UHGV virus genome: UHGV-0150678
DNA length: 39,693 nt
DNA from: a virus
Reading direction: 5' to 3' (one strand)
The position numbers are program-made. Below, piece by piece: positions 9,801-12,800 of this stretch. Numbering within the stretch: the first letter of the stretch is position 1; each line of letters opens with the position of its first letter.

Positions 9801-12800
9801 CTTTCTGAAAGCACATCAAACCAAATACCAGACAGACAAAAATAATCACCTTATCCGCTGTGGCTACGGTGCGGTGTGCTTTGCATAAAAGAAAACCAGC
9901 GCAATGGCTGGCTTCGTGAAAGCGGGTGGCATGAGGTTGCGCTAACAACCTCCTGCCGTTTTGCCCGTGCATATCGGTCACGAACAAATCTGATTACTAA
10001 ACACAGTAGCCTGGATTTGTTCTATCAGTAATCGACCTTATTCCTAATTAAATAGAGCAAATCCCCTCAATGAAGGGGTAGAGCATGTACCGTATGGACA
10101 AAATCAGAGAATGGTTCAGTTACAGCTTCGGAGGACTGACTGCGATGGGTGGCATTCTCTCCCTGAATGACTGGGCTGTCATCATTGGTATTCTTTGTAC
10201 TGTCGGCACATTTGGCATCAACTGGTACTACAAGCGCAAAGAGCGCGAGGACAGATTGAATGGCAATGTCACCGGCACTACGAAATAGCGTAATAGCGGC
10301 GATAAGTGGCGGGGCTATTGCTATAGCATCTGTGTTAATCACTGGACCAAGTGGTAACGATGGTCTGGAAGGTGTCAGCTACATACCATACAAAGATATT
10401 GTTGGTGTATGGACTGTATGTCACGGACACACCGGAAAAGACATCATGCTCGGTAAAACGTATACCGAAGCAGAATGCAAAGCTCTCCTGAACAAAGACC
10501 TTGCCACGGTCGCCAGACAAATTAACCCGTACATCAAAGTCGATATACCGGAAACAACGCGCGGCGCTCTTTACTCGTTCGTCTACAACGTGGGGGCTGG
10601 CAATTTCAGAACATCGACGCTTCTTCGCAAAATCAACCAGGGCGATATCAAGGGCGCATGTGACCAGCTGCGTCGCTGGACATACGCTGGCGGTAAGCAA
10701 TGGAAAGGGCTGATGACCCGTCGCGATATTGAGCGTGAAGTCTGTTTGTGGGGGCAGCAATGAGCAGGTTAACCGCGATTATCTCCGCTCTGGTTATCTG
10801 CATCATCGTCTGTCTGTCATGGGCTGTTAATCATTACCGTGATAACGCCATTACCTACAAAGAGCAGCGCGATAAGGCCACATCCACAATCGCTGATATG
10901 CAGAAGCGTCAACGTGATGTAGCAGAACTCGATGCCAGATATACAAAGGAGCTTGCTGATGCTAACGCGACTATCGAAAGTCTCCGTGCTGATATTTCTG
11001 CTGGTCGTAAGCGCCTGCAAGTCGCTGCCACCTGTGCAAAGTCAACGACCGGAGCCAGCAGCATGGGCGATGGAGAAAGCCCAAGACTTACAGCAGATGC
11101 TGAACTCAATTATTACCGTCTACGAAGTGGAATCGACAGAATAACCGCGCAGGTTAACTACCTGCAGGAGTACATCAGGGCGCAATGCCTTCGATGATAA
11201 CGATAATTTTACTCATCATCCTTCACATCTGGCTCTGTAGACAGGGTGGTGATCACTTCTGGAGTGAATCCAGATTAAACATCTCATTGCTGATGCTTGA
11301 TATTGAGCATCTGGCGCGCGGTAAGGGGCTGCGTTGAGATAAGAGCCAGTCATCACAAACACCAGGATTTAGCCTCGCATTCGCGGGGTTTTTTTATTCC
11401 CAACTCCATAGGTAATTTTATGACCCAGCATATTGGCGTAAAACTGATTAACGCCTTTCCGATGACGAGACAGGCATATAACGATTTTCGTGGCTGGCAG
11501 CTTCCTGCCGGAGAAAACGGCGAGGACGAAGGCTATCTGGTTGAATATCTGGATGGCGGAAAACCTAACACCGATCGCTTTGATGGCTACGTTAGCTGGA
11601 GTCCAAAAGAAGTATTCGAAAAGGCTTATCGTCCGGTATCAGGGCTAAGTTTCGGCCTTGCCATGGAAGCGTTAAAACAGGGCAAAAGTTTGCAGCGGGC
11701 AGGATGGAATGGGAAAGATCAGTTTGTTTATCTCGTGAAAGGAGAAAAATTAGCGTCTGCGTTGGGTTATGGCTTTGGCGAATATGTTGGCGAGCCAACT
11801 TTCAATGACACGCTTGTATTGAAAAACTCACAGAACCGCCTTGCTACATGGGCTCCATCCATTGGCGACCTGATGGCTGAAGACTGGCAAATCATTTAAC
11901 CATGTAGGCATTACAAAGCCTATACCTTAATGATCACGATATTGAAGTAATGGACCGCCAAACGAAGAGAGATATCCTATCACATAACAAATCGTTGCAG
12001 GAGAACTGCAAATTATAAATTAGCGAAGATCATGCAATGGAAAAAAATGAATGTTCGAACTGATAAAGAATTAATGTCTTCAGTTAAGAAAGAGGACGTT
12101 TCTCATTTAAAGAAAATTAAGCGATGCAATGAGTACCATTTCAAAAAGCCGGGTGTTAAACCCGACCTGAATAATCATTCCAGCGGTTCTACTGGATCTG
12201 TCTTTGCTCGTGATGCGAATTGAATGAGCGCCAAAAGAGCCGAACGCATTTTTACATACTCTCTGCTTTTTACAACCTCTGACATATGCTCAGTGACATT
12301 AATATTGGCTGAGCAATACCCTTCCTTTGTTGGAACCGATATTTCCACTTTCATACCTTGATCTATCAGGCCACCCAAAATTCGCAGAGGCTCTGGTTCG
12401 ATCAAAGCAGATACGCGGTTTTTGTCTACGGGTTGAAAGCAGAGTGATGATCCATCATAACGGATTAGAACTCCACTCCGATCAGGACGCATCTCTGGTC
12501 CTATATCCAGAATTCGCCATCCGCAATACCAAGTGCGGCAAACAGAAGGGCGTTCATCATAAATTGCACATCCTCCCTGATGTTTAAGGTGCTGGCATGG
12601 GATGTCAGCCAACTTTTTTAACGTTGGCTGTTCAATTCGTAGCGAAGTGCAGCACACAGAGCATGAACCGCACTTTCTGTTTTTGATTAGTAATTTTTCT
12701 AAACTCATTGGGCATCTCCCAAAGGTAATTAAATGGCACTCACCGACAAGCAAGAAATGTTCTGTCGCGAGTACCTCATCGATTTAAACGCCACGCAAGC

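What the first reader, a model, noticed from the sequence alone, without database searches (positions are those of the whole stretch)
11372..11899. DUF2829 (Tad2-like) protein after the lysis cassette: candidate anti-defence signal sponge
Between Rz and the terminase genes, preceded by its own terminator, lies a 159-aa ORF. Its C-terminal ~85 residues carry the pattern FGLAMEALKQGKSLQRAGWNGKDQFVYL, which I recognise as the DUF2829 signature shared with Thoeris anti-defence protein Tad2. Here the domain has an unusual ~70-residue N-terminal extension. This is a classic moron position. The family assignment is from memory of the motif, not a search.
Basis: partly seen in the sequence, partly recalled or inferred. 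Interest (0 to 1): 0.7.

Follow-up and report, generated by a model that had tools for sequence, protein, structure and literature searches.

The report
Two-domain Tad2-like prophage immune-signal sponge
This E. coli prophage gene encodes a genuine relative of the phage protein Tad2, which soaks up bacterial alarm molecules, joined to a small widespread domain of unknown function that phages repeatedly fuse to several unrelated sponge proteins.

Summary

This assignment is not new. PGAP already annotates the gene as DUF2829, and a 2026 paper proposed the same role for the Kapi1_043 allele at this locus.

The terminator belongs to the conserved lysis module, not to the gene. The N-terminal extension is not unusual, since phage N4 has the same architecture.

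The extension is the more interesting part. It is a 73-aa module with no Pfam, NCBIfam or PDB sequence match and 2,755 cluster representatives. It occurs alone or fused to Tad2, Sequestin or Acb4 domains (101 of 143 top representatives), once with an Acb2/Tad1 hairpin, and it is homologous to the N-terminal domain of RyR Tad. There it forms a domain-swapped dimer with no anti-type-I-Thoeris activity. Its own role remains open.

The parts
11371..11397 (+). Rho-independent terminator-like hairpin plus T-run. It closes the conserved lysis module and marks the left edge of the variable cargo slot.
   Evidence: 8-pair stem, 4-nt loop, T-run.: -13.3 kcal/mol, z = -2.8. The homologous sequence is annotated as a terminator in epsilon34. 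It is conserved in phages with other downstream cargo.
11410..11413 (+). Weak Shine-Dalgarno-like AGGT, 7 nt upstream of the ATG.
   Evidence: Read directly from the sequence.
11420..11899 (+). 159-aa two-domain ORF including its stop codon: N-domain plus Tad2-like domain.
   Evidence: phrog_872 matches full length at E=1.7e-68. A 100% identical gene is annotated as a DUF2829 protein in E. coli SCU-124.
11420..11641 (+). N-domain, residues 1-74. A beta-beta-alpha-beta-beta-alpha module with the Y-x-SWSP motif, no Pfam, NCBIfam or PDB sequence match, and homology to the N-terminal domain of RyR Tad (CB1 gp68).
11642..11896 (+). Tad2-like domain (PF11195), residues 75-159. It is the SPO1 type, with a short beta2-beta3 insertion.

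Best explanation
The ORF encodes a Tad2-family immune-signal sponge carried as cargo in the variable slot between the lysis cassette and the terminase genes of a P22-like E. coli prophage.

Shown here:
- The C-terminal 85 residues are a complete Tad2 domain by profile, by sequence and by predicted fold.
- That domain keeps the core ligand-contacting residues.

Inferred:
- Like SPO1 Tad2, it assembles into a homotetramer whose inter-protomer pockets bind and sequester TIR-made ADPR-type signals. These would be 3'cADPR (1''-3' gcADPR), possibly His-ADPR or N7-cADPR. The Thoeris effector would then never be activated and the phage would escape abortive infection.
- Because its beta2-beta3 insertion is as short as in SPO1 Tad2, a HgmTad2-type cyclic-dinucleotide pocket is not expected.

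The N-terminal 74 residues are a separate module. Its distant homologue in RyR Tad forms a domain-swapped dimer. Here it most likely adds a second dimerisation interface directly N-terminal to helix alpha1, the Tad2 tetramerisation helix. An independent activity remains possible.

The gene is expected to be transcribed with the Q-antiterminated late operon. RNA-seq of the Kapi1 allele suggests strong expression in lysogen cultures as well.
For: Family membership:
- Pfam PF11195 scores E=1.4e-21.
- phmmer against PDB gives SPO1 Tad2 (8sme, 8wje) at E about 1e-25 over residues 75-159, gapless and 47% identical. ModTad2 (9eib) and 8v3e score about 2e-18.

Ligand residues:
- SPO1 residues W25, N26, W73, D79 and S76 (preprint 10.1101/2023.05.01.538930) map to identical W96, N97, W144, D150 and S147.
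- W96, W144 and D150 are invariant and N97 and S147 nearly invariant across 37 homologues.

Context:
- In phage Huey the orthologous slot holds this architecture followed by an Acb4-family gene.
- In phage N4 an Acb4-family gene and an N-domain+Tad2 gene sit side by side.
- Kapi1_043, the allele at the same locus, is reported as the most highly expressed Kapi1 gene in lysogen cultures, and its authors proposed it to be Tad2-like (PMC12922286).

N-domain:
- hhalign of the N-domain profile against CB1 gp68 gives probability 97.1% and E=5e-11. BLASTP gives 34% identity over 67 aa.
- In the gp68 crystal structure the N-terminal domain is a domain-swapped dimer (bioRxiv 10.64898/2026.06.04.730250).
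Against: - No binding or phage assay exists for this protein, or, as far as I found, for any N-domain+Tad2 protein.
- Five of the ten SPO1 residues named as ligand or water contacts differ: I63L, T65N, D67Q, H71A and T78G. T78 makes the only hydrogen bond to adenine. Tad2 homologues are known to differ widely in specificity (PMC12393519). The ligand is therefore uncertain.
- Oligomeric state could not be modelled.
- No sigma-70-like promoter was found on the + strand between Rz and the ATG, so how and when the gene is expressed is unresolved. The Kapi1 read-out could include spontaneously induced cells.
- The reference host of Kapi1 lacks Thoeris.
Confidence: 0.72

Rival explanations
1. Dual-function anti-defence protein. 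The N-domain is itself an active module, either a new nucleotide sponge or a direct inhibitor of a host immune protein. The ORF would then neutralise two signals or systems at once, as Acb4-Tad2 and Acb4-Sequestin fusions do.
For: - The N-domain occurs alone as 73-78-aa proteins in lytic phages with no Tad2 gene nearby.
- Of the 143 best cluster representatives, 101 also carry Tad2, Sequestin or Acb4 domains, in every order and in triple fusions. One carries an Acb2/Tad1 hairpin. A divergent member is fused to the RyR sponge.
- Fusion to known sponges is exactly the logic that led to the discovery of Sequestin (PMC12265669). That screen used Pfam families, so a domain without a Pfam model could not appear in it.
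- The N-domain is more conserved than the Tad2 domain. It has many invariant polar and aromatic residues: K8, Y20, Y43, D45, N50, Y57, S59, W60.
Against: - gp68_N (residues 1-86) alone had no activity against type I Thoeris. However, gp68_N is a divergent member that lacks the RGW and DGGKPN segments, and in the section read only type I Thoeris is reported as tested.
- No ligand pocket could be examined and no multimer model was possible.
Confidence: 0.3
2. The N-domain is only a structural accessory, such as a dimerisation, solubility or avidity module. It has no target of its own, and the protein is functionally a plain Tad2.
For: - The domain-swapped dimer seen in RyR Tad, where both domains contribute to dimerisation and the C-terminal domain alone is sufficient for activity.
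- The N-domain sits immediately before helix alpha1, which mediates Tad2 tetramerisation.
Against: - A pure oligomerisation module would not be expected to persist as a highly conserved stand-alone gene in many lytic phages.
- It would also not be expected to be more conserved than its partner domains.
Confidence: 0.4
3. Anti-CRISPR (AcrIIA7-like) protein, as the orthologue in phage Huey is annotated.
For: - The Huey CDS0064 label reads 'anti-CRISPR protein'.
- There are weak sequence matches to AcrIIA7 chains 8kbi (E=8e-6) and 9kzr (E=3e-5).
Against: - The label derives from the shared DUF2829 domain.
- Li et al. could not reproduce any Cas9 inhibition by HgmTad2/AcrIIA7 or other Tad2 homologues, in vitro or in vivo.
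- From general knowledge, E. coli does not carry type II CRISPR-Cas9.
- The match to SPO1 Tad2 is twenty orders of magnitude better.
Confidence: 0.03
4. Lysogenic-conversion factor that acts on host physiology rather than on immunity. For example, it might buffer host nucleotide second messengers such as c-di-GMP.
For: - The Kapi1 allele is highly expressed in lysogen cultures, in a host that lacks Thoeris.
- HgmTad2 co-purifies with c-di-GMP.
Against: - The c-di-GMP pocket of HgmTad2 is built by a long insertion that this protein lacks, as shown by its gapless alignment to SPO1 Tad2.
- SPO1 Tad2 bound none of the other cyclic nucleotides tested.
Confidence: 0.05

Closest known systems
Bacillus phage SPO1 Tad2 (Gp34.65; PDB 8SME/8SMF/8SMG, 8WJE)
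   Same: Residues 75-159 align without gaps to the whole 89-aa protein at 47% identity. The beta2-beta3 insertion has the same short length. Core ligand residues W25, N26, W73, S76 and D79 are conserved.
   Different: This protein has an extra 74-aa N-terminal domain. Five peripheral pocket residues differ, including T78G, the adenine hydrogen-bond donor. The host and phage type differ: an E. coli temperate podovirus against a lytic Bacillus myovirus.
Phage N4 gp49 (RefSeq YP_950527, 160 aa, annotated as DUF2829 protein)
   Same: It has the same two-domain architecture, N-domain plus PF11195, at 48% identity overall. It lies next to an Acb4-family gene, just as the Huey orthologue does.
   Different: It belongs to a lytic N4-like phage and lies in the hotspot beside the virion RNA polymerase. 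Its central insertion is shorter and different. I found no functional test of it.
Kapi1_043 (Escherichia phage vB_EcoP_Kapi1; PMC12922286)
   Same: It occupies the same locus after Rz, the 50-aa ORF and the terminator. The N-domain and helix alpha1 are 98% identical at nucleotide level. The authors proposed it to be Tad2-like and report it as the most highly expressed prophage gene.
   Different: It is 173 aa long. It diverges after about nt 263 and has a beta2-beta3 insertion about 14 aa longer, so ligand range may differ.
RyR Tad (Pectobacterium phage vB_PatP_CB1 gp68; bioRxiv 10.64898/2026.06.04.730250)
   Same: Its N-terminal domain is homologous to the N-domain here (hhalign probability 97%, E=5e-11). 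It too is a two-domain protein with a gcADPR sponge at the C-terminus.
   Different: Its C-terminal domain is an all-alpha RyR repeat (PF02026), not Tad2. Its N-domain is divergent, lacking the RGW and DGGKPN segments.
HgmTad2 / AcrIIA7 (PDB 8KBI-8KBM) and ModTad2 (PDB 9EIB)
   Different: HgmTad2 has a long insertion that forms a second pocket for cyclic dinucleotides, which is absent here. ModTad2 binds His-ADPR and cUMP, and its central region differs.

Membership tests
Tad2 / PF11195 (DUF2829) sponge family | Profile match to PF11195 above Pfam's gathering score | tested here: met
   77.2 bits against a 25-bit cutoff, E=1.4e-21, profile positions 2-73 of 73.
Tad2 / PF11195 (DUF2829) sponge family | Full-length sequence homology to experimentally validated Tad2 proteins | tested here: met
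   SPO1 Tad2 E about 1e-25, 47% identity, gapless over 85 aa. ModTad2 E=1.6e-18.
Tad2 / PF11195 (DUF2829) sponge family | Tad2 fold: alpha1 followed by an antiparallel sheet with helical loop insertions | tested here: met
Tad2 / PF11195 (DUF2829) sponge family | Conserved gcADPR-contacting residues (SPO1 W25, N26, W73, D79, plus S76, T78, I63, T65, D67, H71) | tested here: inconclusive
   The core four and S76 are identical (W96, N97, W144, D150, S147). I63L, T65N, D67Q, H71A and T78G differ. The pocket scaffold is kept but specificity is uncertain.
Tad2 / PF11195 (DUF2829) sponge family | Homotetramer with inter-protomer ligand pockets | not testable with these tools
Tad2 / PF11195 (DUF2829) sponge family | Binds and sequesters a TIR-derived signal and inhibits Thoeris in vivo | not testable with these tools
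   This needs biochemistry and phage assays.
HgmTad2-type dual sponge (second cyclic-dinucleotide pocket) | Long insertion between beta2 and beta5 that builds the CDN pocket | tested here: not met
   The insertion has the same length as in SPO1 Tad2 (gapless alignment). SPO1 Tad2 showed no CDN binding. The Kapi1 and Huey alleles do have longer insertions.
Sponge-associated N-domain (RyR Tad N-terminal domain-like; no Pfam model) | Sequence homology to the N-terminal domain of CB1 gp68 and to the stand-alone 73-aa phage proteins | tested here: met
   hhalign probability 97.1%, E=5e-11. BLASTP E=7e-6. Stand-alone homologues are 57-68% identical.
Sponge-associated N-domain (RyR Tad N-terminal domain-like; no Pfam model) | Domain-swapped dimer in which beta1 completes the partner's five-stranded sheet | not testable with these tools
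   The monomer models show a beta-beta-alpha-beta-beta-alpha topology, with beta1 either paired in cis or unstructured. No multimer model was possible.
AcrIIA7 anti-CRISPR | Inhibition of Cas9 | not testable with these tools
   The link is by shared DUF2829 domain only. The published re-test found no Acr activity.

The most novel reading that the evidence does not exclude
The 73-aa N-domain is an uncharacterised, independently active anti-defence module, either a new sponge family or a direct inhibitor. It is recognisable because phages fuse it combinatorially to at least four unrelated verified sponge families (Tad2, Sequestin, Acb4, RyR Tad) and also encode it alone. The window ORF would then be a two-warhead protein. 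The 26 of 143 N-domain proteins whose partner domains match no Pfam family would point to still more undiscovered sponge families.
Probability: 0.3. Interest if true: 0.75.

Novelty: new member of a known kind. Interest (0 to 1): 0.5.

Why it matters
For the gene as flagged, the result is mainly good annotation. A temperate E. coli phage carries a Tad2-type sponge in the cargo slot after the lysis genes. This bears on which Thoeris or other TIR-signalling hosts it can infect or be induced in.

The wider value lies in the N-terminal module. It is one of the most frequent fusion partners of immune-signal sponges, yet it has no family model, no assigned function and only one passing experimental mention. 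The fusion logic that revealed Sequestin applies to it at least as strongly. Testing it is cheap: express residues 1-74 or a stand-alone homologue against panels of signalling defences. That would either add a new anti-defence family or define a general oligomerisation scaffold used by phage sponges.

Tried and rejected
- **N-domain against known families.** PDB sequence search with the N-domain alone gave nothing below E=0.5. Pfam at E<=1 and NCBIfam gave no hit.
- **AlphaFold database.** Foldseek against afdb50 was unavailable.
- **Published tests.** I looked for the tested Tad2 sequences in the supplements of PMC12393519 to see whether an N-domain+Tad2 protein had been assayed, but none are held.
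- **Promoter.** The scan between Rz and the ATG found no sigma-70-like site on the + strand, and reading the sequence by eye found no convincing hexamers.
- **Partner-domain clustering.** Single-linkage BLAST clustering merged everything through multi-domain proteins. I replaced it with seed-based iterative HMMs.
- **Anti-defence island.** I checked whether the cargo slot is exclusively anti-defence. It is not: epsilon34 carries a T5orf172/MUG113 protein and CUS-3 a Rha protein.
- **Other known sponges.** I checked whether the N-domain is Lockin, Sequestin, Acb4 or TadIV-1. The published descriptions and Pfam models do not fit.

Full report
**Observation**

The window is a complete P22-like (Lederbergvirus-type) prophage. 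It matches CUS-3, Kapi1, HZ41 and Huey at 95-97% over large blocks.

The flagged gene is ATG 11420 to stop 11899, 159 aa. It lies downstream of the holin, lysozyme (PF00959) and Rz (PF03245) genes and upstream of the small (PF03592) and large terminase subunits. The quoted motif is residues 78-105.

An identical gene is present in 37 of 5,426 complete E. coli genomes, always chromosomal, and is annotated 'DUF2829 domain-containing protein'.

**The C-terminal domain is a genuine Tad2 domain**

- Pfam PF11195 (now named Tad2-like) scores 77 bits against a 25-bit cutoff, E=1.4e-21, over residues 77-159.
- phmmer against PDB sequences finds SPO1 Tad2 (8sme, 8wje) at E about 1e-25. The alignment is gapless and covers the entire Tad2 protein at 47% identity. 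ModTad2 (9eib) and 8v3e follow at about 2e-18.

The SPO1 Tad2 paper names W25, N26, W73 and D79 as the main ligand contacts. It names S76, T78, I63, T65, D67 and H71 as adenine or water contacts. The mapping here is as follows:

| SPO1 Tad2 | This ORF | Status |
|---|---|---|
| W25 | W96 | identical |
| N26 | N97 | identical |
| W73 | W144 | identical |
| S76 | S147 | identical |
| D79 | D150 | identical |
| I63 | L134 | differs |
| T65 | N136 | differs |
| D67 | Q138 | differs |
| H71 | A142 | differs |
| T78 | G149 | differs |

The pocket scaffold is therefore intact while the adenine side is remodelled. Tad2 homologues variously block type I, II and IV Thoeris, CBASS and Pycsar (PMC12393519). 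I therefore commit to 'TIR-derived ADPR-type signal sponge' but not to a particular ligand.

The beta2-beta3 insertion has the SPO1 length. In HgmTad2 a long insertion forms the second, cyclic-dinucleotide pocket, and SPO1 Tad2 lacks that binding. No such pocket is expected here.

**Locus**

The hairpin is real. However, the block from about 11201 to 11402, comprising a 50-aa ORF (phrog_11822) plus the hairpin, is conserved at 95-98% nt in dozens of lambdoid and P22-like phages regardless of what follows. In epsilon34 it is annotated as gene 67 plus a Rho-independent terminator.

Downstream cargo varies between phages:

| Phage | Cargo after the terminator |
|---|---|
| epsilon34 | T5orf172/MUG113 protein |
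| CUS-3 | Rha protein |
| Huey | N-domain+Tad2 gene, then an Acb4-family gene (PF13876, whose Pfam name cites N4 Gp49 and Sf6 gene 66) |
| Kapi1 | N-domain+Tad2 allele (Kapi1_043) |

This is a variable cargo slot, so the 'moron position' description is fair.

The gene itself is mosaic. The Kapi1/MP1 allele is 98% identical for the first 263 nt and then diverges. It also carries a longer central insertion.

I found no sigma-70-like promoter between Rz and the ATG. The default expectation is read-through from the Q-antiterminated late operon. A 2026 RNA-seq study reports Kapi1_043 as the most highly expressed Kapi1 gene in lysogen cultures and already proposes it to be Tad2-like (PMC12922286). 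That publication and the PGAP annotation make the core finding already known in kind.

**The N-terminal 74 residues**

These are not an oddity of this gene. The full two-domain protein is phrog_872 (E=1.7e-68). It has thousands of homologues of 154-173 aa at full coverage. Phage N4's RefSeq gp49 has the same architecture at 48% identity and sits next to an Acb4-family gene beside the virion RNA polymerase.

In a 37-sequence alignment the N-domain is more conserved than the Tad2 domain. Invariant residues include G6, K8, N21, P29, G38, L40-Y43, D45, G46, N50, G56, Y57 and S59-P62.

**The N-domain is a shuffled module that keeps company with sponges**

- Searching with the N-domain alone returned stand-alone 73-78-aa proteins and fusions to PF21825.
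- A profile search of 1.84 billion cluster representatives found 2,755 hits at E<=1e-3 and 1,334 at E<=1e-10.
- Among the best 143, Pfam finds Tad2-like in 45, PF21825 in 43, PF13876 in 16, and an Acb2/Tad1 hairpin in one.

Domain-order parsing of those 143 gives the following main classes, with smaller classes omitted:

| Architecture | Count |
|---|---|
| Ndom-Tad2 | 39 |
| Ndom-Sequestin | 26 |
| Ndom-unknown partner | 26 |
| Ndom alone | 11 |
| Ndom-Acb4 | 4 |
| Acb4-Ndom-Sequestin | 4 |
| Sequestin-Ndom | 2 |
| Tad2-Ndom | 2 |
| Triple fusions | several |

In total, 101 of the 143 carry at least one known sponge domain.

PF21825 is Sequestin, a verified 3'cADPR sponge. It was discovered precisely because it is fused to Tad2 and Acb4 in Pfam architectures (PMC12265669). 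PF13876 is the Acb4 family. A domain without a Pfam model could not surface in that screen.

Stand-alone N-domain genes occur in lytic phages with no Tad2 nearby.

**What is already known about the N-domain**

A BFVD Foldseek hit to a RyR-domain protein of Yersinia phage TG1 led to a June 2026 preprint on 'RyR Tad', gp68 of Pectobacterium phage CB1.

- Its C-terminal RyR-like domain is a gcADPR sponge.
- In the crystal structure that N-terminal domain forms a domain-swapped dimer, with beta1 completing the partner's five-stranded sheet.
- Expressed alone (residues 1-86) it had no activity against type I Thoeris.

I retrieved gp68 and confirmed the homology: hhalign probability 97.1%, E=5e-11, and BLASTP 34% identity over 67 aa. 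gp68_N is a divergent member. It keeps K-x-V-x-A-x-PMT, EGYLV-Y and Y-x-SWSP-x-x-VF, but lacks the RGW and DGGKPN segments that are nearly invariant elsewhere.

**Interpretation**

Best supported (confidence about 0.72): the ORF is a Tad2-family sponge for TIR-derived ADPR signals. Its N-terminal module at minimum adds a dimer interface next to the alpha1 tetramerisation helix.

Whether the N-domain is only a scaffold (about 0.4) or has its own target (about 0.3) cannot be decided here. Three observations argue for an independent function:
- its persistence as a stand-alone gene;
- its conservation, which is higher than that of its partner domains;
- its promiscuous fusion to four or five unrelated sponge families.

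The one negative experiment argues against, but it used a divergent member, and the section I read reports only type I Thoeris as tested.

The 'anti-CRISPR' label on the Huey orthologue is a legacy of AcrIIA7 and is not supported.

**Verdict**

The flagged feature is real and correctly identified. As a Tad2-like prophage gene it is a new member of a known kind, already annotated and already hypothesised in the literature for a sister allele. The systematic picture of the N-domain as a sponge-associated module is the part worth following up.

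Noticed in passing
window 12175-12753 (-): A 192-aa Cys-cluster ORF (CxxCxxCC; PGAP calls the identical gene a 'YkgJ family cysteine cluster protein') lies convergent with the Tad2-like gene. It overlaps the start of the small terminase gene (12733) by 21 nt. A bidirectional terminator-like hairpin sits at 12179-12196. Its function is unknown, and it is a second cargo gene in the same slot.
   Followed up: partly
window 11185-11337 (+): A 50-aa ORF with a hydrophobic N-terminus (phrog_11822; homologue of Sf6 gene 65 and epsilon34 gp67) overlaps the end of Rz. 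Together with the terminator it is conserved at 95-98% nt across many lambdoid phages. Its function is unknown.
   Followed up: partly
window about 11683-11850, within the Tad2-like domain; L001:2719-3240; L002:2719-3219: There is a mosaic breakpoint inside the gene. The Kapi1/MP1 and Huey alleles share the N-domain and helix alpha1 almost identically but carry different, longer beta2-beta3 insertions. This suggests recombinational swapping of the ligand-specifying part, and these alleles might have a second pocket like HgmTad2.
   Followed up: partly
proteins P0242, P0249, P0253, P0256 and 22 others (alignment A4): Of the 143 top N-domain proteins, 26 carry a C-terminal partner region of at least 45 aa that none of my four sponge HMMs covers, and only three of the 143 (WDGH, AP2, HNH_3) hit any other Pfam family. 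By the fusion logic these partners are candidates for further unknown sponge or anti-defence families.
   Followed up: no
L010:2609-3462 (phage N4) and L002:2719-3834 (phage Huey): In two unrelated phage groups an Acb4-family gene (PF13876) lies directly beside the N-domain+Tad2 gene. This looks like a recurring two-gene anti-signalling pair. The window lacks the Acb4 gene.
   Followed up: partly
L002:2719-3219 and L002:3454-3834 (phage Huey annotation): Both genes are annotated 'anti-CRISPR protein'. They are a Tad2-like protein and an Acb4-family protein. The labels appear to be inherited misannotations.
   Followed up: yes
window 9650-10084: The window has no tRNA genes. The related phage Kapi1 carries tRNA-Asn and tRNA-Thr between Q and the holin gene.
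   Followed up: no
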